DNA of 64,000 bases from an uncultured bacterium (GTDB lineage: Bacteria > Oederibacteriota > Oederibacteriia > Oederibacteriales > Oederibacteriaceae), in the NCBI GenBank assembly GCA_965112635.1, contig OZ218778.1, positions 1,376,001-1,440,000 on the forward strand, given 5' to 3'. A program made the position numbers and the translations under genes. Shown piece by piece: positions 29,662 through 41,980 of this stretch (the stretch's first letter is position 1; every line of letters starts with the position of its first letter). The notes under the pieces are model-generated. The model was not told where the DNA came from. It saw only the letters and a list, made by a program, of their open reading frames with translations, and searched no databases.

Positions 29662-31331
29662 ATGCGGAAAATGGAAAAAGTCTTTTCTGGAAAATATCTT
29701 TCCCCAAAAAATCCCACCAACAAACAACTTTTCTTTTTTGGTTTTGTAATTTTTTTTCTTTTGCAATTTACCATCCTTAATATCTTCGCCGATATAGCCA
29801 CTCCCACACCTATCTATATCACTGCAACAGCAACAATAGCACCGACAAATAGCAATACGTTCACAGTTTCCTATACCTTTACAAATACGCCCACGCTGTC
29901 TGTCACGTTTGCGCCTCTGCCTATAAAAATTTCTATAAAAGGGGAAACTTCGGAAATCACGGGGACAACCAACGGTTCAATTGTTAATCCCTCGGTAGGA
30001 CCAGTTGGAACGCTTGTTGTGAATGGCACAGGTTCGGTTAATTTCGCTCCAGCCCAGGTAGGAGATGGAGTTTACTTTACTCAGGGTGGCCAGCAAAACA
30101 GTAATACCGCTTATTATAAATGGACCGGGGCCCAAATTGGAGATATCTTTAATTTTAATATGGACCCGGGGGAAATAAATTTTTATTTAAAATCCAATTA
30201 CAGTTTTGCCCAAAGGCAGGCGCTGCCTAGACATAATAGAAGAACCGTTTTTACGGTCAAAGATGATAGTCAGATTTTATTTACTTTCAATACTGAAGCG
30301 GATCCAGAAGTTGGGAGATTGGTTTTAACTTACCAAACTGGGGGGACAAGTCAGCAAACTTATTATATTCCTGCAGGGCAAGAAGACGCATTGTTTGGAC
30401 AGGGAGTAATTTTAAAAGTAACTTTGGATTGGAATGGGTCTAACAATAATTTATATTTAAATGATAATTTAGTCAGCTCCCAGTCCTATTCCATTGCGAC
30501 GAGTAACTGGACTGCGAACTCAATGTTTTGTTTTGGCGCTGATATTGACCCAAATTATGGCCCGGGTTGGTCCTCTTGTGATGATATAGTGGATGAGTTT
30601 AATTTAGCTATATTTAAAACACCAAAATATTTTATGGATCATGTAGCAGTCGAGTTTCAAAGTTCAGCAACCGAAGCGCAAATGGCTCAAGTTGCCGCCG
30701 CTCATCAATGTGAACTTGAACCAGTCCCGGACTCAGTTGTTCAATATAACATCAGAAGACTCAAGCTATTATCTCCCCAAGATATTCATACTCTGGTTGA
30801 TCAGCTAAAAACAGACCCCTTGGTTCTATATTCAAGTCTTGATTATATGGTTGAGTCTTATTTAACACCTGATGACCCATGCTTCAATTCACAGTGGGGC
30901 TTAAATAAAATTAAAGCACCAAATTCTGGCTGCGGCTGGGAAATTTTAGGGACCGGAGATTCAAATGTAACTATAGCAATTGTAGATACTGGTGTTGATC
31001 CCAACCACCTTGATCTAACGCCTAATCTAATCATGCTTCCTGGAGCAAATTTTGTACCATCCGCTCTTAAAACACCTCCGTATACCACTAGTTTTGCAGT
31101 TGATGATAATGGTCATGGTACGCATGTTGCCGGAATTGCTGCAGGGGTGGGAAATAATCATAATGGAATTGCTGGGACTGCATGGAATTGCAAGATATTA
31201 CCAGTAAAAGTGCTTCCAGCAAGTGGTGGATACCCTATTGGTTATCAATCTGTAAGCCATACATTAGTTTGTCAAGCAATAAAATTTGCGGCTGATCAAG
31301 GGGCAAAAGTTATCAATTGCAGCTTGGGATG
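29662..31331 (+). pseudogene. S8 (subtilisin-like) peptidase with N-terminal beta-sandwich domain, 3'-truncated by IS
   Basis: IAIVDTG (Asp), GHGTHVAGI (His), VINCSLG, then reads into the IS end and stops at 31362; no catalytic-Ser GTS motif. Confidence 0.85.
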
Positions 31332-31358
31332 TGTAGTGCCCACGATATTTCTTCCGGC

Positions 31359-32522
31359 TTAGCCAGCTAGGGAAGTCGACCGCAGAGGGGTTTGTAACCC
31401 ATATGCTACGACTTGCCGGACAGCAGTAACGCCATCCTTGAAAACAACTAGAGCCTTTCTGACGCCGTTTGACGCCTCCAATGTATCCCTTTGCATCTCA
31501 GAATGCAAGACGCTCATCTTTGGTCTGATGACTTGTGCCAGGCCGTACGCCTCAAGTAGGTCGTAGACGGCGATGCGCCAGGCATAATGCAACTGCCTTT
31601 TAGTCATACCGGGACGCTCAACATCACGCATGGCAGCCTTAGCGCGTGCGTAGAACTCATCCCTTGTGACGCGTTCTTGCCAGTGAGGCATCGTGCGGTG
31701 GAGACATGAGGCGGTTTGATATCCCTTAGATGCGCGCAAGCGACCATCGTCCAGCGTGTGGATGGCCTGGAACAGCCTGGTTTGCGCTTCCAAGAGATTC
31801 GTGAATATCACCCCCTTTCCGAGTTGGGATTCGGCTTTGAGTTCGCCGAAATATCTTTCAACAGCGCCGTTGTCCTGGGCGCAGTAAGGCCGGGACGGCA
31901 GGGCAATGACCTTATGCCTGGCCAAGTAGGACAGGACAGCATCACTGCGATACGCTGAGCCGTTGTCAGTCATCCAAACCAGAGGCAGGCCGTTCGTCTG
32001 CCTGATCAGCTCAAGGAGCTCGATGATATCCTGAGCAGAGCCTGAGTCATGCAGGGACAACCCTACGGTCTTGAGCGAGCCCCGGTCTTTGACGAGCTCA
32101 GTATCCACCGGCGCTTGGCCCATCCTGCCCAGATGGGTGCGGTCCTGGGCGTAGACGGCGCCTTTAACTTGAACCCGTAAGCCGAGATGATGGTCCCGGC
32201 GGTGCTTTTCCAGCCTGTAGCGGTGCCTTTTCTTGATGGCCGAAAGAGTATGCTGGACTAGCCGGGTCGGGAGCCAGGGGAGGTTTCTGCGGATGCTATC
32301 GCATCCTGCGTTCCACCCCTGGCGTTTGACCTCCCGCCTGACCTCCAAAAGGGCCTTTAACTTCAGGGCCGGGGAGTGGCCTTTTCGACCAGGGTTTTGT
32401 GGTTCCTGGACAAGCCAACTCCTCACGGTCCTGTCGCTGACATGGAAAAAATCAGCTGCCACGCGTTTTGCCTCCCTCGGGGTTGGATGGCTCTGGAGCC
32501 ATTGTTTTAGGCTTAGGCGCAT
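31359..32522 (-). CDS. IS ORF3: second DDE/rve integrase-fold protein
   Basis: N-terminal HTH (VSDRTVRSW), YAQD, WMTDNGSAY, QDNGAVER; stop codon abuts the terminal repeat. Confidence 0.85.
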   Translation of the reverse strand: MRLSLKQWLQSHPTPREAKRVAADFFHVSDRTVRSWLVQEPQNPGRKGHSPALKLKALLEVRREVKRQGWNAGCDSIRRNLPWLPTRLVQHTLSAIKKRHRYRLEKHRRDHHLGLRVQVKGAVYAQDRTHLGRMGQAPVDTELVKDRGSLKTVGLSLHDSGSAQDIIELLELIRQTNGLPLVWMTDNGSAYRSDAVLSYLARHKVIALPSRPYCAQDNGAVERYFGELKAESQLGKGVIFTNLLEAQTRLFQAIHTLDDGRLRASKGYQTASCLHRTMPHWQERVTRDEFYARAKAAMRDVERPGMTKRQLHYAWRIAVYDLLEAYGLAQVIRPKMSVLHSEMQRDTLEASNGVRKALVVFKDGVTAVRQVVAYGLQTPLRSTSLAG

Positions 32523-33045
32523 TTCTTTGGTGAGTCTTTTTTTTTCCCTTGGCCTTGCCTGGTTTAGAGTCCTCCCGGTAGGCTGGGAAGGATTTCAGGA
32601 GGTCAATGAGCTCCTGCTGGATTTTCAACTGGACCTCCATTTCCCGCAGTTTCTTCTCCATGGCCTTGGCTGAGTTGCAGGCCATCAGGGCTGTGGCTCC
32701 CTTGCGAGTCCTGGGCTGGGTCAACAGACCCGAGAGCATCCCTGAAACAGCCTGCTGGGACAGCTGCCATATCCGCAGGGGGGATATTTCCAGCTGTTGG
32801 GCTGCTTCCTCCCGGGAAATCTGGCCCAGCCACACTTGCAGGAGGGCCACTCCTGTCCGGTGCGCCAGCTGTTTCTCCTCTTCGGTCGCCGCATTCCACA
32901 GGGCTTTGACTGGAAAGGGAAATTTCGCTGGGATCTTGAACTGGGGGCGTTTCTTGCGGACCTTGTGCGGGGGCTTGAGGCTGTCCGTTACCGTCTGGGG
33001 CTGCAGGTCTTTCTGCGGTTTCTCTGGTGTTGGTTTCTCGTCCAT
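32452..33045 (-). CDS. IS ORF2: HTH plus coiled-coil protein
   Basis: AAGGAGG RBS before ATG 33045; ISREEAAQQLEISPLRIWQL HTH-like segment followed by a coiled coil. Confidence 0.75.
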   Translation of the reverse strand: MDEKPTPEKPQKDLQPQTVTDSLKPPHKVRKKRPQFKIPAKFPFPVKALWNAATEEEKQLAHRTGVALLQVWLGQISREEAAQQLEISPLRIWQLSQQAVSGMLSGLLTQPRTRKGATALMACNSAKAMEKKLREMEVQLKIQQELIDLLKSFPAYREDSKPGKAKGKKKTHQRNAPKPKTMAPEPSNPEGGKTRGS

Positions 33046-34438
33046 TTTGATCCTCCTTAGGTTGTTGATTTTGTGATTGGATATGCACTTCTTCACAAGC
33101 AATTTCCCGGCGTTCTCCATCCGGGGTCAGTAATATCATTTTACCCTTTTCTCCGTGAAGGCTGACCTGTTGTTCACCAATTTGCCCCACCAGATACACG
33201 GGTTTACGCGGCTCTTCGTTGATGGCCAGGCGCAATTCGTTGTCAGTAATGGCTTTTTGGATGGATTTTCTGACTTCGGATTCGGCCTCAAAATACCGGT
33301 CAGCAGGGATCATATTATCAATTCCCTGATGCTGGCGAAAATGGTTGTAATACGCAAAGAAATGGGCCAAACGCTCCCGGGCATCGGTCAGGTCTCTAGG
33401 CTCCACTCTGCACCAAAACTCTTCGTCAACTGTTTTCCAAAAACGCTCGCATTTACCCAGGGTTTGCGGGTGGTGGGAGCGAGCCACGACATGTTTGATG
33501 CCCTGTTTTTTGAGCAGTTTCTCAAATTTGCTATGACCTCTCCAGGCAAAATATTGCCGTCCCTGGTCGGTCAGGACCTCCAGGGGTTTGCCGAAGCGGG
33601 AAACTCCTTCCTGATAGGTCTCTATCAGCGCGGCTGCAGTGGCATTGCTGAAAAGACCCCAGGAGACGATGTAGCGGCTGAAGTCGTCCATGAAAACGAC
33701 CAGGTGAACCCGCTGGCCCACCCGGTGCAAGACAAAGCTGGTGAAGTCACTTTGCCATAGTGCATTGGGGCGGCTCCGCTCAAACCGGCGGGGGAGATGC
33801 CTTTTCCGAGGACGGGCAGGGGCGGGAGATGGGGAAAAACGGCCGGACCGGTACAGGATCTTTTGGATGCTTCCAGCGCTCACCTTGAGAGCCCTGAAAC
33901 GCTTTAAAAAGTGGCCCAGACGCTTGAATCCGAACTGTGGGAATTGGTCCTTGGCCGCTATCACTGCCTGCTGAAGACCGATGGACAGGCGGCTGGTTCT
34001 TGGTTTACGCCGCTCACCTTGGTAGGGGCGCTCCAAGCCGTCAGCTCCATGGGCCTCATAAGCTATGATCCACTGGCGAAGGGTTCCCCGCGCGATACCC
34101 CAAACTTGGGAAAACGCGTCCAAGGTCATTCCTGATTTCAGGAACGCCTCACAGGCTTGCTTTCTCTGGTCCAGGCGATAGTGTGTCTGGCTGTATGCCT
34201 GAGAAAGGCTCTTGGTGAACCTAGGCTGGAGACCTTGCTCCCCATAGGCTCCATACTGCCTTTTCCACTTGTACAGGCTGACGGGAGTGATGTGGTGCTC
34301 TTGGCAGAACTCTCTGACCGGCCCTGTTCTATGCTCCAATGCCTGGAGCAGTGCCAGTTTCTGTTCTGGGGTTATGATCCTGCCTGTTACAGGGCCCCCA
34401 TGACCCTCTTCTGGCTGTGGTGCTAAAGTGCTTACCAT
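32603..34438 (-). CDS. IS ORF1: DDE transposase (tandem HTH plus rve core) with low-complexity tail
   Basis: RRFERSRPNALWQSD, DDFSRY, LTDQG, HPQTLGKCER, YNHFRQHQG; AGGAG RBS. Confidence 0.9.
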   Translation of the reverse strand: MVSTLAPQPEEGHGGPVTGRIITPEQKLALLQALEHRTGPVREFCQEHHITPVSLYKWKRQYGAYGEQGLQPRFTKSLSQAYSQTHYRLDQRKQACEAFLKSGMTLDAFSQVWGIARGTLRQWIIAYEAHGADGLERPYQGERRKPRTSRLSIGLQQAVIAAKDQFPQFGFKRLGHFLKRFRALKVSAGSIQKILYRSGRFSPSPAPARPRKRHLPRRFERSRPNALWQSDFTSFVLHRVGQRVHLVVFMDDFSRYIVSWGLFSNATAAALIETYQEGVSRFGKPLEVLTDQGRQYFAWRGHSKFEKLLKKQGIKHVVARSHHPQTLGKCERFWKTVDEEFWCRVEPRDLTDARERLAHFFAYYNHFRQHQGIDNMIPADRYFEAESEVRKSIQKAITDNELRLAINEEPRKPVYLVGQIGEQQVSLHGEKGKMILLTPDGERREIACEEVHIQSQNQQPKEDQNGRETNTRETAERPAAPDGNGQPQAPAQGPQETPPVQDPSEISLSSQSPVECGDRRGETAGAPDRSGPPASVAGPDFPGGSSPTAGNIPPADMAAVPAGCFRDALGSVDPAQDSQGSHSPDGLQLSQGHGEETAGNGGPVENPAGAH

Positions 34439-34566
34439 GATCCGTCTCCTCTCTTTGACCTTGATTCCCCTCTGGAGACGGTCTAAACTTCACTCATGCT
34501 GACACAAAAACCGGAAGTATTTTCGTTAGGCACTACAGAGCCTATAATCATTAGATTGAGGTAACC

Positions 34567-35988
34567 ATGTCTAAGATACTCCAAACACAATTAAGGGTTT
34601 TCCTGAGCATCCTGCCTGTTACTTTAGCACTTGTCCTTGGGATTTCCCTGGTCTATGGCGGCGATGCCCAGACCCATTTTCAAAAAGGGAGCCAGCTGGA
34701 AGCTACCAAGGATTATCAGGGTGCCCTGACCGAATTCCAAGCGGTTTTGGCCGCCCAACCGGATAATACGACCGCCCGAGAGCAGCTAGGTAATTGCTAT
34801 TATTATTTGGGCGATATTCCTCAAGCTCTACAAACCTATACCACCTGCCTAAAAGCTGACCCTTCCAATACCAAACTGAAAGAAATGGTAGATTATTTGA
34901 ACACCAAAGTGGCTGCTGACGCGACCTCAAACAAGGGAAACGATAACCCAACGGCGGGTATGGCAAATTCCGACCAAACGAGTGATAAAGACACAAAAGA
35001 AGTGATCAATGATTCGGACGAAGCGGACACCGATATGGATCACGAGATAGCAGATGCCTTGGGTGAAAAAGGGATTAAAAAAAAGCCATTCCATTCCCAG
35101 TGGGGCATCCGTTTACGAGGAGGTTATGGCTGGGGCCTGACCAATAATGTTTATGGACAACAAGCCACGGCGGACAACACGAATCCTATCCAATTTCCTT
35201 ATGGTTTGGGCGAAGGCATTTCCTACGGAGCCGAGATCACCTATAGCATCTCACCCAGCTTTGAAATAGGGCTAGGGGTTTTCCCTTTATCCATCAATAC
35301 CAGCGATCAAGCTTACATCCAAACGACCCTTACCGCGCAGTCTTATAATCCATCCGTCCTGCTGAACGAATTCCCGGTCATGGCCCATCTGTATAACAGC
35401 ACCCCGCTGTCCAAAGACCTGAATATTTTTACAGGTTTTGGGGTAGGAATCGTCCTAGGGCAGAATTATGTTCAGAACTCCACGACCAGCACTACGGATA
35501 TATTAACTGGGAGACTAGCTACCACCACCGGGACTTTTACGGCCAGCTACGACCCAACCGCAGCATTCCGGGGCGTTATCGGGGCTGAATACAAGCTCAA
35601 TAAACATTTCTCTTTGGCTTTGGATGTAGCTCTTTTGCTGGCCAACCTGACCGCCAACCAAACGGTTAACCAAGAAATTACCACCCATAGCGGCGGGGAG
35701 GTGGACACGACCCTCATCACCAATAATTTTGTTGCCAGTCCTCCGGTCGCTGTAGGGGCCACAACGACAGAAACCACTTCTCAAACCGGCAATAGGACCA
35801 CCACGGTCGACACCTCGGACAACGGAGTCACTCAAATCGTCACCACGACGGTAACCAACACAGCACACCCTAATATCGTCTATAGCAAAAATACGATCGA
35901 AACGAGCACGCTCCTAGCAGGTTCCAGTACGGATAATTTACATTTCAACCAGCTTTCTACCGCCTTAACTTTGATCTATAGATTTTGA
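34567..35988 (+). CDS. Secreted TPR protein with C-terminal outer-membrane beta-barrel
   Basis: Signal peptide, TPR pair (ALTEFQAVLAAQPDN...LGNCYYYLGD), amphipathic strands, terminal LIYRF. Confidence 0.7.
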   Translation: MSKILQTQLRVFLSILPVTLALVLGISLVYGGDAQTHFQKGSQLEATKDYQGALTEFQAVLAAQPDNTTAREQLGNCYYYLGDIPQALQTYTTCLKADPSNTKLKEMVDYLNTKVAADATSNKGNDNPTAGMANSDQTSDKDTKEVINDSDEADTDMDHEIADALGEKGIKKKPFHSQWGIRLRGGYGWGLTNNVYGQQATADNTNPIQFPYGLGEGISYGAEITYSISPSFEIGLGVFPLSINTSDQAYIQTTLTAQSYNPSVLLNEFPVMAHLYNSTPLSKDLNIFTGFGVGIVLGQNYVQNSTTSTTDILTGRLATTTGTFTASYDPTAAFRGVIGAEYKLNKHFSLALDVALLLANLTANQTVNQEITTHSGGEVDTTLITNNFVASPPVAVGATTTETTSQTGNRTTTVDTSDNGVTQIVTTTVTNTAHPNIVYSKNTIETSTLLAGSSTDNLHFNQLSTALTLIYRF

Positions 35989-36004
35989 TATAAAAGGCTA
36001 AAAA

Positions 36005-36976
36005 ATGTCCTTTAGAGCTTTGCGTTTGAATAACCTAAAATTCATCGTCTACTCAACAGGTATCTTTATTCTGGTCTCCCCCGGGCATACCTCCAGCTCT
36101 GCAGGCGTTATCTACAGTTGGGGGGTGAATTATTACGGTGCAGAAGCGACCGCCTCCCTAGACCTGGACAAAGATGCGGTCTGGAACACCGGCTTGGACT
36201 ACAGCTACGGCAACAGCACCGATTCCACCACCCCGAGTATCACGAACCAGATCACTCTCAGTCTGACGCGCAGTGTGGAAGAGACCTGGGAATATGAAAG
36301 TTCCGCAACCTACTCCGCCGACACCACCAACGGCATTTATTTTGCCGGCCCCAGCTTGGAGGTCTCCTACACGGCGAACAAGTCCTCCGCCAAAGACGAT
36401 GAGAACCTCTTGTCCGATGACGCGGACGATGAGCTTTGGAGCTGTTCGCTCACAGGTAACATCTATGGGTACCAGGCCAATGTGGGCCAATATTCCGCTA
36501 CGGGCCTTAACAAAAAGGGGCTGGATTATACCTATATGGAGGGGACGGGCGTACTTTACGACACCCAGTTTAATCCCCGCCTTGATCTTGAAGTCCCTCT
36601 CTGGGCCGGCCTGCTGACCCCGTCCGTTTCTTATAGTCATTATTTCTACTCATCGGACCCGGCCGTCATCGCGGGCATCATCAATAAACGATTCAGTTCC
36701 AGTCCGGCAGCAGCTCAGATCAACAACCTGGTCGGAAGGTTGTACTACAACTCCTGGCAAGGGGTCCTTATGGCTGAACTGCCCTGGAATATCATGGTGG
36801 ACGGAAACTATGGACAGCAGGAGTTGGTCAGCCCGGATACCTGGATCAGTTCGTATGGCGCTGACTTTGCGGTAAAATTCCTGGATAAATTGCGTGCCAA
36901 ATTGTCCTTCTCCGAAACGGATCAGACCGGCACTTTTCAGGATGTCTATTCGGCGGGTTTGACCTACACCTTTTAA
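36005..36976 (+). CDS. Putative outer-membrane beta-barrel protein
   Basis: Alternating aromatic/polar strands, terminal YSAGLTYTF BAM-type signal. Confidence 0.6.
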   Translation: MSFRALRLNNLKFIVYSTGIFILVSPGHTSSSAGVIYSWGVNYYGAEATASLDLDKDAVWNTGLDYSYGNSTDSTTPSITNQITLSLTRSVEETWEYESSATYSADTTNGIYFAGPSLEVSYTANKSSAKDDENLLSDDADDELWSCSLTGNIYGYQANVGQYSATGLNKKGLDYTYMEGTGVLYDTQFNPRLDLEVPLWAGLLTPSVSYSHYFYSSDPAVIAGIINKRFSSSPAAAQINNLVGRLYYNSWQGVLMAELPWNIMVDGNYGQQELVSPDTWISSYGADFAVKFLDKLRAKLSFSETDQTGTFQDVYSAGLTYTF

Positions 36977-38532
36977 TGTAAGATAACGAACTTTCCCATC
37001 ACCCGGTAATCGACGCTCCCTTTTTTCGCCTCCACCCAGTAGTAGTACACGCCGTTGGATAGCGCATTGCCCTGGCCATCCTTGAGGTCCAACGGCAGGG
37101 TATAAGCATACTGGGCGATCCCGTTATTGATCACTCCCTGCAGATTGGACGACCCATTGAGGTCGGTAAGATAAATGGACCGCACCATCCGGATGGAGAG
37201 CGTATAGATCCGTACCGTGAGATTATCCGGAACATCGGTCATCCTCATATAAAGCATGATCTGCTTTGAATATTTGACCGGATTAGGATACGGGCAGTGT
37301 TCCACGATCTGCAGGATATCGCTAGGCGTGGGCGTGAGGGTTGAGGTCAAAGTAACCGTCCCAGTCTGGGTCGGTGTGCAGGATGCGCTCAGTGTATTGG
37401 TGATGGTCGCGGTCGTAGAGCTGGTCAAAGTCTGGCTTGATGTCACGGTCTGGGAAAAAGTCAGCGTGGCTGTTTTTGTCGCGGAAGGGGTCGGGGTCTG
37501 ACTGATGGTAAAAGTTTGAGTGTTGGTATAAGTGGTGCTCGGGGTCAACGTCTGAGTAAAGGTGGAGGTCACGGTGGGCGTGGATTCTACGAGCTTCCAC
37601 ACACCGCCGCCGTCGGTCCCAAGATATAAAGTGCTGTTGGCCGTATCAAAAGTAATGCGCTGGGGACTGCTGTAGGGCACTCCTGTCACACGCGCCCAGC
37701 TCGTCCCTGCATTGAGGCTTTCGTAAAGGCCCTGCGCCTCGGTGGAAAGGAAGACCCGGTTGGTGTTTTGAGGATCGATCAGAGGCGACATCCCGTCATA
37801 GTAAGGAAAATCGCTCGGCAAAGTCAACTTGGCCCAATGAGTCCCGCCATCCGACGTTTTATAAATGCCCCCCTGAGCTTGAAAATGGGAACCAGGCGGC
37901 GGGTCATAGACTCCGTCGCTCGCCGCAATGTAGATCACACTGCTATGATTGGGGTCCACATCGAATTGCATCGGCGAATACAAAGGAATACCGCCGTGCA
38001 GGGTATCCACACTGGTCGCGATGTTCTGCCAAGTGGTCCCTCCATTGGTGGATTTAAAAAGACCGCCGGCATCCGCGTAGGTGTACGGTGAGGAAGAGGT
38101 CGCTCTCGGCCCCAACAAGCAGAACAAAGTGCCGTCCTGGTGCAGCTTAAGCAGGTAGGTGTGATGATTCTGGCCGATGGAGATCGCCGCGGTCGCGTTC
38201 CAGGAAGCGCCGGAGTTGGTGGACTTATAGACTCCGCCTCCCCACATGGACACATAAAGGGTCGCCGGCGAACTGCTCGTATCCGAAATAATAGAACAAG
38301 CCGGATAAGGTTCAGGAGGGTTGGGACCGGCAGGCAGGCCGCTGGACGAATCAGACCAGGTCACTCCCTGGTCCGTACTTTTCCAGACCCCTCCGTATCC
38401 CCAGGTCCCCGAAGCCGTGGCGTCAAAAGGCTTGTGGGGAATATCGTGCTGGCCCGACATGGCCGCGTAGACCACATTAGGCTGTGAGGGATCAAAAGCC
38501 AGCTGGTAGATCGTATTGGCCAGATTAGGTTT
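36973..38532 (-). pseudogene. BNR/Asp-box beta-propeller protein with Thr-rich linker and T9SS-like CTD, 5'-truncated by IS
   Basis: Repeated GG.(W/Y/F)KST.GG.TW, TPT linker, PYPNP...NGVYYY...GKFVILH; the listed start codon lies inside the IS end. Confidence 0.8.
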
Positions 38533-38559
38533 TGTAGTGCCCACGATATTTCTTCCGGC

Positions 38560-39723
38560 TTAGCCAGCTAGGGAAGTCGACCGCAGAGGGGTTTGTAACC
38601 CATATGCTACGACTTGCCGGACAGCAGTAACGCCATCCTTGAAAACAACTAGAGCCTTTCTGACGCCGTTTGACGCCTCCAATGTATCCCTTTGCATCTC
38701 AGAATGCAAGACGCTCATCTTTGGTCTGATGACTTGTGCCAGGCCGTACGCCTCAAGTAGGTCGTAGACGGCGATGCGCCAGGCATAATGCAACTGCCTT
38801 TTAGTCATACCGGGACGCTCAACATCACGCATGGCAGCCTTAGCGCGTGCGTAGAACTCATCCCTTGTGACGCGTTCTTGCCAGTGAGGCATCGTGCGGT
38901 GGAGACATGAGGCGGTTTGATATCCCTTAGATGCGCGCAAGCGACCATCGTCCAGCGTGTGGATGGCCTGGAACAGCCTGGTTTGCGCTTCCAAGAGATT
39001 CGTGAATATCACCCCCTTTCCGAGTTGGGATTCGGCTTTGAGTTCGCCGAAATATCTTTCAACAGCGCCGTTGTCCTGGGCGCAGTAAGGCCGGGACGGC
39101 AGGGCAATGACCTTATGCCTGGCCAAGTAGGACAGGACAGCATCACTGCGATACGCTGAGCCGTTGTCAGTCATCCAAACCAGAGGCAGGCCGTTCGTCT
39201 GCCTGATCAGCTCAAGGAGCTCGATGATATCCTGAGCAGAGCCTGAGTCATGCAGGGACAACCCTACGGTCTTGAGCGAGCCCCGGTCTTTGACGAGCTC
39301 AGTATCCACCGGCGCTTGGCCCATCCTGCCCAGATGGGTGCGGTCCTGGGCGTAGACGGCGCCTTTAACTTGAACCCGTAAGCCGAGATGATGGTCCCGG
39401 CGGTGCTTTTCCAGCCTGTAGCGGTGCCTTTTCTTGATGGCCGAAAGAGTATGCTGGACTAGCCGGGTCGGGAGCCAGGGGAGGTTTCTGCGGATGCTAT
39501 CGCATCCTGCGTTCCACCCCTGGCGTTTGACCTCCCGCCTGACCTCCAAAAGGGCCTTTAACTTCAGGGCCGGGGAGTGGCCTTTTCGACCAGGGTTTTG
39601 TGGTTCCTGGACAAGCCAACTCCTCACGGTCCTGTCGCTGACATGGAAAAAATCAGCTGCCACGCGTTTTGCCTCCCTCGGGGTTGGATGGCTCTGGAGC
39701 CATTGTTTTAGGCTTAGGCGCAT
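38560..39723 (-). CDS. IS ORF3, copy 2 (second DDE protein)
   Basis: Translation identical to 31359-32522. Confidence 0.85.
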   Translation of the reverse strand: MRLSLKQWLQSHPTPREAKRVAADFFHVSDRTVRSWLVQEPQNPGRKGHSPALKLKALLEVRREVKRQGWNAGCDSIRRNLPWLPTRLVQHTLSAIKKRHRYRLEKHRRDHHLGLRVQVKGAVYAQDRTHLGRMGQAPVDTELVKDRGSLKTVGLSLHDSGSAQDIIELLELIRQTNGLPLVWMTDNGSAYRSDAVLSYLARHKVIALPSRPYCAQDNGAVERYFGELKAESQLGKGVIFTNLLEAQTRLFQAIHTLDDGRLRASKGYQTASCLHRTMPHWQERVTRDEFYARAKAAMRDVERPGMTKRQLHYAWRIAVYDLLEAYGLAQVIRPKMSVLHSEMQRDTLEASNGVRKALVVFKDGVTAVRQVVAYGLQTPLRSTSLAG

Positions 39724-40246
39724 TTCTTTGGTGAGTCTTTTTTTTTCCCTTGGCCTTGCCTGGTTTAGAGTCCTCCCGGTAGGCTGGGAAGGATTTCAGG
39801 AGGTCAATGAGCTCCTGCTGGATTTTCAACTGGACCTCCATTTCCCGCAGTTTCTTCTCCATGGCCTTGGCTGAGTTGCAGGCCATCAGGGCTGTGGCTC
39901 CCTTGCGAGTCCTGGGCTGGGTCAACAGACCCGAGAGCATCCCTGAAACAGCCTGCTGGGACAGCTGCCATATCCGCAGGGGGGATATTTCCAGCTGTTG
40001 GGCTGCTTCCTCCCGGGAAATCTGGCCCAGCCACACTTGCAGGAGGGCCACTCCTGTCCGGTGCGCCAGCTGTTTCTCCTCTTCGGTCGCCGCATTCCAC
40101 AGGGCTTTGACTGGAAAGGGAAATTTCGCTGGGATCTTGAACTGGGGGCGTTTCTTGCGGACCTTGTGCGGGGGCTTGAGGCTGTCCGTTACCGTCTGGG
40201 GCTGCAGGTCTTTCTGCGGTTTCTCTGGTGTTGGTTTCTCGTCCAT
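39653..40246 (-). CDS. IS ORF2, copy 2 (HTH/coiled coil)
   Basis: Translation identical to copy 1. Confidence 0.75.
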   Translation of the reverse strand: MDEKPTPEKPQKDLQPQTVTDSLKPPHKVRKKRPQFKIPAKFPFPVKALWNAATEEEKQLAHRTGVALLQVWLGQISREEAAQQLEISPLRIWQLSQQAVSGMLSGLLTQPRTRKGATALMACNSAKAMEKKLREMEVQLKIQQELIDLLKSFPAYREDSKPGKAKGKKKTHQRNAPKPKTMAPEPSNPEGGKTRGS

Positions 40247-41639
40247 TTTGATCCTCCTTAGGTTGTTGATTTTGTGATTGGATATGCACTTCTTCACAAG
40301 CAATTTCCCGGCGTTCTCCATCCGGGGTCAGTAATATCATTTTACCCTTTTCTCCGTGAAGGCTGACCTGTTGTTCACCAATTTGCCCCACCAGATACAC
40401 GGGTTTACGCGGCTCTTCGTTGATGGCCAGGCGCAATTCGTTGTCAGTAATGGCTTTTTGGATGGATTTTCTGACTTCGGATTCGGCCTCAAAATACCGG
40501 TCGGCAGGGATCATATTATCGATCCCCTGATGCTGGCGAAAGTGATTGTAGTGCGCGAAGAAATGGGCCAACCGTTCCCTGGCTTCGGTCAGATCCTTAG
40601 GCTCCACCCTGCACCAAAACTCATCATTGACGGTTTTCCAAAGCCGCTCGCATTTGCCGACTGTCTGGGGGTGGTGGGAACGGGCCACGACTTGCTTGAT
40701 ACCCTGTTTTTTGAGCAGCTTTTCAAACTCCCCATGGCCTCTCCAGGAAAAATATTGCGGTCCCTGGTCGGTCAAAACCTCCAGTGGTTTGCCAAAACGG
40801 GAAACACCCTCCTGAAAGGTCTGTATCACGGCATCCGCAGAGGCACGAGTGGTAAGGCCCCAGGAGATGACGTAGCGGCTGAAATCATCCAGGAAAACGA
40901 CCAGGTAGGCCCGCAGTCCCTGCCGGTGCAGGACAAAGCTGGTGATGTCGCTTTGCCATAGCTCGTTGGGACGACTTCGCTCAAACCGGCGGGGGAGATG
41001 CCTTTTCCGAGGACGGGCAGGGGCGGGAGATGGGGAAAAACGGCCGGACCGGTACAGGATCTTTTGGATGCTTCCAGCGCTCACCTTGAGAGCCCTGAAA
41101 CGCTTTAGAAAATGGCCCAGGCGCTTGAACCCATAGTACGGGAATTGGTCTTTGGCCTCTATCACCGCCTGCTGAAGACTGCTGGGTAGACGGCTTGTTT
41201 TTGGCTTGAGGAGTTTGCTTTGAAATGGCCGCTCCAAGCCACGAACTCCATTGGCCTCATAGGCTTTGACCCACTGCCGCAGGGTGGCCTGCCCGATGCC
41301 CCAAACCTTGGAAAAGGCATCCTGGGACATACCTGATTTTAGGTATGCTTCGCAGGCCTGTTTTCTTTGGTCCAGGCGATAGTGTGTATGGCTGGGTCTC
41401 TGAGAAAGCTTCCCCTTGAAATTGGCCTGAAGCCCTTGAGCACCATAGGCCTCAAACTGCTTTTTCCACCTGTACAGGGTTGTGGTGGTTATACCGTGCT
41501 CGCGGCAAAAGTCCTTGACCGAACCTTGTGTGCGCTCAGATGCTTGGAGAAATGTCAGCTTCTGTTCTGGGGATAGGAGCTTAACGGCTCCTGGCACTCC
41601 CTGATCCCCTCCCGTCTGTTCGTTCTGGATGTCTGTCAT
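39804..41639 (-). CDS. IS ORF1, copy 2: DDE transposase, divergent allele
   Basis: Same length (611 aa) and motifs as copy 1; N-terminal 60% substituted, C-terminal part identical. Confidence 0.9.
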   Translation of the reverse strand: MTDIQNEQTGGDQGVPGAVKLLSPEQKLTFLQASERTQGSVKDFCREHGITTTTLYRWKKQFEAYGAQGLQANFKGKLSQRPSHTHYRLDQRKQACEAYLKSGMSQDAFSKVWGIGQATLRQWVKAYEANGVRGLERPFQSKLLKPKTSRLPSSLQQAVIEAKDQFPYYGFKRLGHFLKRFRALKVSAGSIQKILYRSGRFSPSPAPARPRKRHLPRRFERSRPNELWQSDITSFVLHRQGLRAYLVVFLDDFSRYVISWGLTTRASADAVIQTFQEGVSRFGKPLEVLTDQGPQYFSWRGHGEFEKLLKKQGIKQVVARSHHPQTVGKCERLWKTVNDEFWCRVEPKDLTEARERLAHFFAHYNHFRQHQGIDNMIPADRYFEAESEVRKSIQKAITDNELRLAINEEPRKPVYLVGQIGEQQVSLHGEKGKMILLTPDGERREIACEEVHIQSQNQQPKEDQNGRETNTRETAERPAAPDGNGQPQAPAQGPQETPPVQDPSEISLSSQSPVECGDRRGETAGAPDRSGPPASVAGPDFPGGSSPTAGNIPPADMAAVPAGCFRDALGSVDPAQDSQGSHSPDGLQLSQGHGEETAGNGGPVENPAGAH

Positions 41640-41738
41640 TATCCGTCTCCTCTCTTTCCCCTTGAATTCCCTCTGGAGACGGTCTAAACTTCACTCATGC
41701 TGACACAAAAACCGGAAGTATTTTCGTTAGGCACTACA

Positions 41739-41980
41739 TGAGCTATTTCCTTCCTACTTCGGATGCAGATCAAGTCACTATCAGGATTTACACGCTCTCC
41801 GCCAGACTAATCAGGGTCATTGGAAACTGCCCTAAGGATTATGGGACCAACTCCTGCACTTGGGATGTTAAAGATGCCAACGGCTTTGGGCTGAGTAACG
41901 GGCTTTATTTCTATAGCGTTGAAGTTGTCCGTGGTTCCACCCATGTGAGGCAGGCCGGGAAAATCGCTATCACCCGCTGA
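41739..41980 (+). pseudogene. Orphan FlgD-Ig/T9SS-like C-terminal domain fragment
   Basis: IRIYTLSARLIR...WDVKDANG..LSNGLYFY...GKIAITR; the apparent ATG uses the last base of the IS. Confidence 0.75.

What the first reader, a model, noticed from the sequence alone, without database searches (positions are those of the whole stretch)
31332..34537. 3.2-kb IS481-like element encoding two different DDE transposase-fold proteins plus an HTH protein
Seen: one pair of TGT-starting TIRs encloses three overlapping co-oriented ORFs. ORF1 has an apparently complete triad (WQSD / LTDQG / KCER), ORF3 has a separate one (YAQD / MTDNG / AVER), and ORF2 is an HTH-coiled coil with a strong RBS. The whole unit recurs with the same ends and length at 38533-41738, and I see no internal TIR pair. 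Known: IS481 elements normally carry one transposase in about 1-1.5 kb, and IS21 pairs a DDE enzyme with an ATPase, not with a second DDE enzyme. Inference: a heteromeric two-transposase system (for example one enzyme per end, or excision versus integration), or a stabilised fusion of two IS.
Basis: partly seen in the sequence, partly recalled or inferred. Interest (0 to 1): 0.8.

Follow-up and report, generated by a model that had tools for sequence, protein, structure and literature searches.

The report
Insertion sequence with two transposases
This is a real 3.2-kb jumping gene, present twice in the window, that belongs to a widespread but apparently undescribed family whose members all carry two different, intact cut-and-join enzymes inside one pair of ends, which is unusual for such simple elements.

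Summary
Two 3206-bp copies (31332-34537, 38533-41738, minus strand) are each bounded by one TGTAGTGCC... inverted-repeat pair. Each carries ORF1 (IS481-like HTH+rve), ORF2 (small HTH plus long helix) and ORF3 (divergent rve).

It is one element, not a nested pair:
- The ORF1-ORF2-ORF3 order recurs in 26 of 27 related loci; the 27th is cut by a contig end. It also recurs in distant relatives at 28-33% ORF1 identity.
- Peat metagenome contigs end exactly at 31332 and 34537 with other flanks.
- There is no internal repeat pair.

All three genes are under purifying selection (dN/dS 0.18, 0.03, 0.20). The ORF3 triad D127/D186/E222 is invariant in 143 of 143 representatives.

New here: ORF2 and ORF3 look like an IS3-type OrfA/OrfB pair. 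A G-flanked A8-A10 run sits in their overlap in 18 of 21 loci. One GC-rich relative has an in-phase C_CCA_AAA heptamer instead, and another has the two genes naturally fused.

Also new: none of 11 complete copies has a target duplication of 3 bp or more, and several copies sit at deletion or rearrangement junctions.

Whether the two enzymes act as a heteromer is untested. Five literature searches found no description, but ISfinder could not be queried.

The parts
31332..34537 (-). Element copy 1, 3206 bp, complete
   Evidence: Metagenome contigs break to other flanks exactly at 31332 and 34537 (table 7).
34511..34537 (-). Terminal inverted repeat at the ORF1 side (TGTAGTGCCTAACGAAAATACTTCCGG)
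   Evidence: The same motif type (TGT[A/G]G.G..AAC.AAA..TTCC) is seen at the ends of relatives.
32603..34438 (-). ORF1, 611 aa: two HTH regions, an rve DDE core (D231, D291, E331), a conserved C-terminal region to about residue 445, then an unconstrained low-complexity tail that overlaps ORF2
   Evidence: dN/dS of the core is 0.23 (W1/W2) and 0.18 (L092/L094); in the tail frame it is 3.2.
32452..33045 (-). ORF2, 197 aa from the ATG that has a strong RBS: basic N-terminus, conserved core R.WQLSQQAVSGML.GLLTQPR (HTH-like helices), and a long helix
   Evidence: dN/dS is 0.03 in its frame within the overlap.
32537..32545 (-). A9 run (GGG AAAAAAAAA G) in the ORF2/ORF3 overlap; proposed slippage site joining ORF2 to ORF3 (+1 frame)
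   Evidence: A homologous A8-A10 run is present in 18 of 21 loci. L117 has the two genes fused in frame and L098 has an in-phase C_CCA_AAA.
31359..32522 (-). ORF3, 387 aa: N-terminal HTH/helical region, an rve DDE core (D127, D186, E222, K229) and a helical C-terminal region; its stop abuts the end repeat
   Evidence: dN/dS is 0.20.
31332..31357 (-). Terminal inverted repeat at the ORF3 side (reverse complement TGTAGTGCCCACGATATTTCTTCCGG)
38533..41738 (-). Element copy 2, 3206 bp: ORF3 38560-39723, ORF2 39653-40246, A9 run 39738-39746, ORF1 variant 39804-41639 (84% aa identity to copy 1)
29662..31331 (+). Subtilase (S8) gene cut by copy 1; only model positions 2-119 of 288 remain and the rest is not on the other side of the element
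36973..38532 (-). Sortilin/BNR-like gene whose 5' end is cut by copy 2

Best explanation
A member of a widespread, apparently undescribed IS group of the IS3/IS481 (rve) superfamily. One TGT...ACA inverted-repeat pair encloses two complete transposase modules. Module 1 is ORF1, an IS481-type single-ORF transposase (HTH-HTH-DDE). Module 2 is IS3-type: ORF2 corresponds to OrfA (HTH plus long helix) and ORF3 to OrfB (HTH plus DDE). ORF2 and ORF3 are joined into an OrfAB-like fusion when the polymerase or ribosome slips on a conserved A8-A10 run in their overlap.

Shown:
- It is one mobile unit with exact ends.
- The layout is conserved.
- All three frames are under purifying selection.
- Both triads are invariant.
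- ORF1 and ORF3 co-diverge.
- The A-run is conserved, and one relative carries a natural in-frame ORF2-ORF3 fusion.

Inferred:
- Both enzymes are needed for movement and act on the same pair of ends, with some division of labour such as different chemical steps or different strands.
- The ORF2:fusion ratio set by slippage regulates activity, as OrfA and OrfAB do in IS3.
- The pathway differs from classic IS3/IS481 copy-out-paste-in, because insertions carry no target duplication and often lie next to deletions or rearrangements.
For: Single unit:
- Same ends and length in both copies.
- Contigs of coded runs X1 and X4 leave the element exactly at 31332 and 34537 into other sequence.
- No internal TIR.
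- In many relatives the last ORF3 codons and the stop (..EDIL*) lie inside the end repeat.

Conserved layout:
- ORF1-ORF2-ORF3 order in 9 of 9, 9 of 9 and 8 of 9 loci holding an ORF3 homologue. Some places were fetched twice, and the one miss, L115, has only 217 bp upstream.
- All 16 ORF1 matches at E<=1e-87 in 99 genomes of the phylum lie beside an ORF3 match.
- Relatives at 28-33% ORF1 identity (L106, L107) have the same three genes, with Pfam HTH_Tnp_1/HTH_28 for ORF2 and rve at 42-58 bits for ORF3.

Selection:
- ORF1 core 0.18 and 0.23.
- ORF3 0.20, against 1.2-1.4 in the off-frames.
- ORF2 0.03, with 18 of 20 substitutions synonymous.

Catalysis:
- ORF3 D/D/E invariant in 45 of 45 and 143 of 143; spacing D-59-D-36-E.
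- AF2 model pLDDT 86; the core superposes on retroviral integrase cores (HTLV-2 CCD TMt 0.84; MMTV intasome E 2.8e-9) and on TnsB. The profile hits MMTV integrase at 1.7e-13.
- ORF1 D/D/E invariant in 12 of 12.

Other support:
- Co-divergence: the ORF1 and ORF3 trees share their main clades.
- Recoding: A8-A10 run in 18 of 21 loci, including GC-rich ones. A/T runs of 9 or more occur only 16 per Mb in this genome. L098 has C_CCA_AAA in phase with ORF3 in the -1 frame, and L117 has one continuous ORF2-ORF3 frame.
- Reading the window through the run in +1 gives one co-linear match to the IS3 transposase model, positions 7-327 of 369.
- Precedent: IS1447 (IS3 family) uses a run of nine A for transcriptional slippage (PMC6211511, abstract read).
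- Family size: 365 clusters (50% identity) at E<=1e-30.
Against: - No experiment or RNA data bears on expression, slippage or activity.
- Nothing shows that the two enzymes interact or that both are required.
- ORF1 scores just below the NCBIfam IS481 cut-off (213.6 and 221.1 against 224), and ORF3 or the read-through scores far below the IS3 cut-off (74.7 and 79.5 against 160).
- The read-through adds only about 5 bits over ORF3 alone.
- ORF2 of the main group is not significantly similar to ORF2 of the distant group (hhalign E 0.15), so their equivalence rests on position and architecture.
- In some relatives (for example L015) ORF3 has its own ATG upstream of the A-run, so a separate ORF3 product is also possible.
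- One GC-rich locus (L114) shows no obvious recoding site.
- The missing target duplication is not explained by any step of the proposed mechanism.
- ISfinder could not be searched, so prior description cannot be excluded.
Confidence: 0.55

Rival explanations
1. Only one enzyme is the transposase (ORF1, or the ORF2-ORF3 fusion). The other module is an auxiliary or regulatory protein, such as an inhibitor, an end- or target-binding factor, or an immunity function, that happens to derive from a transposase.
For: IS3 elements already use truncated products (OrfA, OrfB) as regulators (recalled knowledge). The two end repeats are alike, so one DNA-binding specificity could serve both ends. ORF3 evolves faster than ORF1: 33-41% against 41-45% identity to the same relatives.
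Against: A purely regulatory protein need not keep its active site. Yet D127/D186/E222 and N218 are invariant in 143 of 143 representatives at 50% identity or less, and ORF1 D/D/E in 12 of 12. Both cores show dN/dS near 0.2.
Confidence: 0.2
2. The two transposases are redundant. Either can mobilise the element on its own, and the pair is kept because each works under different conditions or hosts.
For: Both are complete (DNA-binding plus DDE) and both belong to the same superfamily with TG..CA ends. In the window the ORF1 part has been exchanged independently of the rest: 100% against 62-96% identity, which shows some modularity.
Against: Redundant genes in a selfish element are usually lost quickly. 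Here, no locus with an ORF3 homologue and enough upstream sequence lacked ORF1 (26 of 27 loci), and no close ORF1 relative lacked ORF3 (16 of 16). The pairing persists down to 28-33% ORF1 identity.
Confidence: 0.15
3. It is a chance nesting or juxtaposition of two independent IS, an IS3-like element inserted in or next to an IS481-like one, with no joint function.
For: The two modules resemble two different named families.
Against: There is one TIR pair only and no internal ends. The same layout, overlaps and frame relation (ORF1 to ORF2 always +1, with 170-530 nt overlap) occur in divergent relatives. The trees are congruent. ORF2-ORF3 was never seen alone. Contig breaks fall at the outer ends only.
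Confidence: 0.03

Closest known systems
IS481 family (ISfinder family; features recalled from the ISfinder/TnPedia descriptions, not retrieved here)
   Same: ORF1 is an HTH+rve DDE transposase whose best NCBIfam model is IS481 (E 3.9e-63 and 2.1e-65). The ends begin TGT and finish ACA.
   Different: It has three genes and 3.2 kb instead of one gene in about 1-1.5 kb, and a second DDE enzyme. ORF1 scores just below the curated cut-off (213.6 and 221.1 against 224). No target duplication was seen in 0 of 11 copies, whereas IS481 members are described as making 4-15 bp duplications (recalled).
IS3 family, especially the IS1447 subgroup that uses an A9 run for transcriptional slippage (PMC6211511, abstract read)
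   Same: ORF2 (HTH plus long helix) followed by an overlapping ORF3 (rve) mirrors OrfA/OrfB. A conserved A8-A10 run lies in the overlap. ORF3's best NCBIfam model is IS3, and the read-through aligns co-linearly to model positions 7-327. The ends are TG..CA.
   Different: Scores are far below the IS3 cut-off (74.7 and 79.5 against 160). The shift needed is +1 in most members. An extra full-length IS481-type transposase lies upstream inside the same ends. No 3-5 bp target duplication is present.
IS21 (IstA DDE transposase plus IstB AAA+ helper)
   Same: It is a multi-gene IS in which a second element-encoded protein is needed alongside an rve-type DDE enzyme.
   Different: The second protein here is another DDE enzyme, not an ATPase; no ATPase domain was found in any ORF.
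Tn7 heteromeric transposase TnsA+TnsB
   Same: It is a precedent for two different nucleases sharing the cleavage work at transposon ends. The ORF3 model also resembles TnsB structurally (ranks 27, 38 and 48).
   Different: TnsA is a restriction-endonuclease-fold enzyme, not a DDE. Tn7 also needs TnsC and target selectors and makes 5-bp duplications (recalled). None of these is present here.
IS26/IS6-type behaviour (cointegrate-forming IS; recalled)
   Same: Two directly oriented copies bracket a 4-kb segment. Copies lack flanking duplications and lie next to deletions.
   Different: The transposases are unrelated (ORF3 of L106 gives only a sub-threshold DDE_Tnp_IS240 hit), and the ends are different. 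This is a resemblance in footprint only; the mechanism was not tested.

Membership tests
IS481 family | Transposase reaches the curated NCBIfam IS481 model cut-off (NF033577, 224 bits) | tested here: inconclusive
   ORF1 copy 1 scores 213.6 bits and copy 2 scores 221.1 bits. IS481 is the best model but both scores fall just below the cut-off.
IS481 family | Terminal inverted repeats starting TGT / ending ACA (recalled definition) | tested here: met
   TGTAGTGCC... is at both ends of both copies and TGT[A/G]G.G is at the ends of relatives.
IS481 family | A single transposase ORF, element about 1-1.5 kb (recalled definition) | tested here: not met
   There are three selected ORFs, two with DDE triads. 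Elements are 3055-3206 bp.
IS481 family | Short target-site duplication (4-15 bp, recalled) | tested here: not met
   0 of 11 complete copies have a direct repeat of 3 bp or more at the junctions; the longest is 2 bp, in 1 copy.
IS3 family | OrfA (HTH plus zipper) and overlapping OrfB (rve) joined by programmed frameshift or slippage | tested here: met
   Met at sequence level only. A8-A10 run in the ORF2/ORF3 overlap in 18 of 21 loci, in-phase C_CCA_AAA in L098, and a natural fusion in L117. Expression was not tested.
IS3 family | Transposase reaches the curated NCBIfam IS3 model cut-off (NF033516, 160 bits) | tested here: not met
   ORF3 scores 74.7 bits and the ORF2-ORF3 read-through 79.5 bits.
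IS3 family | One transposase module only; 3-5 bp target duplication (recalled) | tested here: not met
   An extra ORF1 transposase lies inside the same ends, and there is no duplication in 0 of 11 copies.
IS21 family | IstB-type AAA+ ATPase helper gene | tested here: not met
   No ATPase family hit for ORF1, ORF2 or ORF3 in Pfam or NCBIfam.
Tn7-like transposons | TnsA-type endonuclease, TnsC ATPase and target selector alongside the DDE TnsB | tested here: not met
   Only HTH and rve domains were found. The TnsB likeness is of the shared fold only.

The most novel reading that the evidence does not exclude
The family moves by a pathway not yet described for DDE insertion sequences. An obligate two-enzyme transpososome (IS481-type ORF1 plus slippage-made IS3-type ORF2-ORF3 fusion) acts on one pair of ends, with the two active sites carrying out different steps. 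The outcome is insertion without any target duplication and frequent adjacent deletion or rearrangement.
Probability: 0.2. Interest if true: 0.85.

Novelty: new variant of a known kind. Interest (0 to 1): 0.68.

Why it matters
Simple insertion sequences are textbook one-enzyme machines. The known multi-protein cases pair a DDE enzyme with an ATPase (IS21, Mu, Tn7) or with a different nuclease fold (TnsA). A large family (at least 365 clusters at 50% identity) that has kept two intact rve-type DDE enzymes inside one pair of ends, down to 28-33% identity, raises an open question: why would a selfish element pay for a second transposase? It could also be a natural system for studying division of labour between related active sites.

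It also adds a clear set of A-run recoding sites, with a natural fused control. And it provides a DDE element whose copies consistently lack target duplications and sit at deletion junctions, which bears on how these elements reshape genomes of uncultured peat and sediment bacteria. In practice, annotation pipelines will call these elements two or three unrelated 'transposase/hypothetical' genes and miss the unit.

Tried and rejected
Searches and predictions that gave no usable answer:
- Complex prediction of ORF1 (1-450) with ORF3 (1-340), each with its alignment: 'no answer', score 0.00 in two runs, controls not run. This is no evidence either way.
- RNA evidence: the look-up of sequencing runs listed no RNA holder, so expression and slippage could not be examined. 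All four runs laid were contigs and showed no joints, circle junctions or empty sites.
- Empty-site searches. The L091 flanks are repeats in G061. The L096 flanks gave nothing usable. The L094 left flank is part of a group II intron copy, and its other flank does not continue the intron. The two L092 flanks match two different contigs of G061, each exactly up to the element boundary. No simple filled/empty pair was obtained, so the target sequence before insertion is unknown.
- Plasmid collection: tblastn with ORF3 gave no match. The phage and E. coli collections were not searched.
- ORF2 fold: pLDDT 70 and no PDB match with E<=0.001; the best were small HTH proteins at E 0.3-0.6. 'HTH' for the main-group ORF2 is therefore an inference from the helices and the Atlas leads.
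- hhalign of the ORF2 profile against ORF2 of L106: not significant (E 0.15).
- A -1 frameshift at the window's A-run was considered and rejected. The -1 frame stops after 8 codons (read from the sequence); ORF3 is in +1.
- An ORF1-ORF2 fusion was considered. ORF1's tail frame is unconstrained (dN/dS 3.2) while ORF2 has its own strong RBS, so it was not pursued.
- Promoter and terminator scan: nothing above shuffles worth using.
- Hairpin over the ORF1 start: z -1.73, and 14 of 200 shuffles fold as well; weak.
- Literature: searches found no two-DDE IS. For PMC10045372 I read two passages, for PMC6211511 the abstract and outline, and for the rest only the listings.
- Atlas taxa (Planctomycetota, Myxococcota, Verrucomicrobiota, Elusimicrobiota) are leads only. 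Cross-phylum synteny was not tested.


Full report
**Observation.** The window holds two 3206-bp copies of one element at 31332-34537 and 38533-41738. They are the only two in the 2.876-Mb single-contig genome. The genes are on the minus strand:
- ORF1: 32603-34438, 611 aa.
- ORF2: 32452-33120. Its likely start is the ATG at 33045, preceded by AAGGAGGA, which gives 197 aa; this is also the form found in the protein collection.
- ORF3: 31359-32522, 387 aa.

Both ends start TGTAGTGCC and stay similar for about 26 nt. That 9-mer occurs exactly only at the four ends, and the long end pattern occurs only at the two ORF1-side ends. There is therefore no internal repeat pair.

ORF1 carries HTH_28, HTH_32 and rve domains, and its best NCBIfam model is IS481 (213.6 and 221.1 bits; cut-off 224). 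ORF3 is a weak rve (26.7 bits, cut-off 32.6) whose best NCBIfam model is IS3 (E 7.8e-21). ORF2 has no family.

The two copies are mosaic. The ORF3-ORF2-ORF1-tail part is 100% identical, while the ORF1 DNA-binding and catalytic part is 62-96% identical per 100 nt.

**One element, exact ends.** When contigs of four coded metagenome runs were laid on copy 1, contigs of X1 and X4 matched the element at 99-100% and left it exactly at 31332 and at 34537 into unrelated sequence (tables 7 and 8). The same unit therefore sits in other contexts with the same termini.

Relatives have the same kind of ends (TGT[A/G]G.G..AAC.AAA..TTCC), with lengths of 3055-3206 bp. In many of them the last ORF3 codons and the stop lie inside the end repeat (..GAAGATATTTTGTGAACACTACA, reading ..EDIL*). 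ORF3 is thus built into the end of the element and is not a passenger.

**Conservation of the layout.**
- ORF3 has 68 relatives in the 90%-clustered collection, many on contigs of about 3.0-3.3 kb.
- tblastn with the three window proteins found ORF1-ORF2-ORF3 in that order in 9 of 9 loci, 9 of 9 and 8 of 9. The ninth, L115, has only 217 bp upstream. Some places were fetched twice.
- In 99 genomes of the window's phylum, 10 hold ORF3. All 16 ORF1 matches at E<=1e-87 lie on the same contig next to an ORF3 match.
- The next ORF1 relatives (28-33% identity; L106, L107) again show an ORF1 with a low-complexity tail, an overlapping small HTH ORF (Pfam HTH_Tnp_1, HTH_28 and HTH_29 above cut-off in L106) and an rve ORF (42-58 bits).
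- ORF1 to ORF2 is always a +1 frame change, with 170-530 nt of overlap.
- The ORF1 and ORF3 trees share their main clades.
- Named records holding the family are four contigs of a 'candidate division FCPU426' MAG and one 3.4-kb contig binned as Solirubrobacteraceae.
- A profile search of 1.84 billion representatives gave 365 clusters at E<=1e-30.

**Selection and catalysis.** All dN/dS values come.

| Region | Pair compared | dN/dS |
|---|---|---|
| ORF1 core | L092/L094 (94% identical, ungapped) | 0.18 |
| ORF1 core | the two window copies | 0.23 |
| ORF3 | L092/L094 | 0.20 (off-frames 1.2-1.4) |
| ORF1/ORF2 overlap, ORF2 frame | L092/L094 | 0.03 (18 of 20 changes synonymous) |
| ORF1/ORF2 overlap, ORF1-tail frame | L092/L094 | 3.2 |

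All three genes are therefore selected, and the long ORF1 tail is not constrained in sequence.

- ORF3 D127, D186, E222 and N218 are invariant in 45 of 45 and in 143 of 143 sequences (the window plus 142 representatives at 50% identity or less). K229 is K or R in 137 of 143.
- ORF1 D231, D291 and E331 are invariant in 12 of 12.
- The ORF3 model (pLDDT 86) has an RNase-H-like core that matches retroviral integrase cores (HTLV-2 CCD TMt 0.84, rmsd 3.0; MMTV intasome E 2.8e-9) and TnsB.
- Its profile hits MMTV integrase at 1.7e-13.

**ORF2-ORF3 is an IS3-type pair.** In the window a run GGG-A9-G (32537-32545) lies in ORF2 about 20 nt before the ORF3 ATG. It falls inside the stretch where the ORF3 frame (+1) is already open.

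- A homologous A8-A10 run is present in 10 of 11 elements and in 8 of 10 further loci, 18 of 21 in all. This includes loci of 55-57% G+C and the distant L106/L107 group.
- In the window's genome, A/T runs of 9 or more occur only 16 per Mb.
- The three loci without the run have 69-71% G+C. L098 has C_CCA_AAA in the correct phase with ORF3 in the -1 frame. L117 has ORF2 and ORF3 as one continuous frame through an A6 run. L114 is unresolved.
- The protein segment right after the run (KKR.P.YPRELTRK.G.WL) is conserved in the ORF3 frame across the family. In the window it extends upstream of the annotated ATG.
- Reading the window through the run with one +1 step gives a protein that aligns to the NCBIfam IS3 transposase model in one stretch, positions 7-327 of 369. 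It scores 79.5 bits, which is still below the cut-off and only about 5 bits above ORF3 alone.
- An IS3-family element, IS1447, is reported to use a run of nine A for transcriptional slippage (PMC6211511, abstract).

Because the same kind of run serves members that need +1 and members that need -1, transcriptional slippage is the simplest reading. This is inference; no RNA data were available.

**Insertion footprint.** None of 11 complete copies (W1, W2, L015, L091, L092, L094, L096, L098, L110, L113, L116) has a direct repeat of 3 bp or more across the junctions. Where the context can be read, the interrupted sequence does not continue on the other side:
- Copy 1 cuts a subtilase gene at model position 119 of 288, and copy 2 cuts a sortilin-like gene.
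- The left flank of L094 is part of a group II intron copy whose remainder is missing.
- The two flanks of L092 match two different contigs of a congeneric genome, at 94% and 99%, each exactly up to the element boundary.

This pattern fits adjacent deletions or rearrangements, by recombination between copies or by an intramolecular replicative pathway. No filled/empty pair was found, so the cause is open.

**Mechanism and rivals.** The best-supported reading is one IS with two co-evolving, catalytically intact transposase modules that act on one pair of ends, the second module being expressed IS3-style. The conclusion that both are needed is inferred from three observations:
- Neither is ever lost.
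- Both triads are invariant.
- The two enzymes co-diverge.

How the work is divided is unknown.

The rivals are that only one enzyme is catalytic for movement and the other is regulatory, which is weakened by the invariant triads; that the two are redundant, which is weakened by their strict co-occurrence; and that this is a chance nesting, which the data contradict. The origin is most simply an ancient fusion or duplication within the IS3/IS481 superfamily.

**Comparison and novelty.**
- ORF1 and the ends resemble IS481. ORF2/ORF3 resemble IS3.
- The element fails the defining features of both families on gene content, length, target duplication and curated scores.
- It has no ATPase (so it is not IS21, Mu or Tn7-like).
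- Five full-text searches found no IS with two DDE transposases.

I rate it a new variant of a known kind, with a moderate chance that the two-enzyme, duplication-free behaviour reflects a new pathway.

Noticed in passing
window 31332-34537 vs 38533-41738: The two copies are mosaic. The ORF3/ORF2/ORF1-tail 1.9 kb is 100% identical, but the ORF1 HTH and catalytic part is 62-96% identical per 100 nt (84% at protein level). This suggests gene conversion or recombination between two diverged lineages with a breakpoint near the end of the ORF1 core. An X1 metagenome contig shows a variant that diverges from about 33302 onward.
   Followed up: partly
window 34538-38532: The two directly oriented copies bracket a 4-kb segment with a TPR/OMP-like gene (34567-35988), an unassigned gene (36005-36976) and a 5'-truncated sortilin-like gene. 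Outside them lie a truncated S8 peptidase gene (left) and an 80-aa FlgD_ig-type C-terminal domain ORF (41738-41980, right). This looks like a composite or translocatable-unit-like arrangement with adjacent deletion.
   Followed up: partly
L094 3501-3795 (G059:C82): The element's ORF1-side end abuts a fragment of a group II intron (Rfam RF00029, 48.6 bits, minus strand). The same roughly 300-bp piece occurs twice in G060, and its 55-bp core occurs 11 times in G058.
   Followed up: partly
L117 (metagenome contig, 71% G+C), about 1140-2771: ORF2 and ORF3 form one continuous open frame through an A6 run. This is a natural fused form of the proposed slippage product.
   Followed up: yes
L096 (G058:C10) and L095 (G008:C35): These are decaying copies. 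ORF1 of L096 is split over three frames. The G008 copy has a TGA in ORF1 and a TAG between ORF2 and ORF3.
   Followed up: no
P0102 (718 aa): This ORF3 homologue continues into HEAT repeats (PF13646), probably by read-through into a disrupted host gene. Four other long forms (445-503 aa) have no extra domain.
   Followed up: partly
window 34437-34486 (minus strand): An inverted repeat GACCGTCTCC / GGAGACGGATC could pair over the ORF1 ribosome-binding site and start codon. The fold is -18.9 kcal/mol with z -1.73, and 14 of 200 shuffles fold as well, so it is weak.
   Followed up: partly
L091 flanks (G060:C3): Both flanks of this copy are themselves repeated in the sister genome G061. The left flank occurs three times at 86%, and the right flank gives 183 weak matches that look like a repeat-rich coding family.
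   Followed up: no
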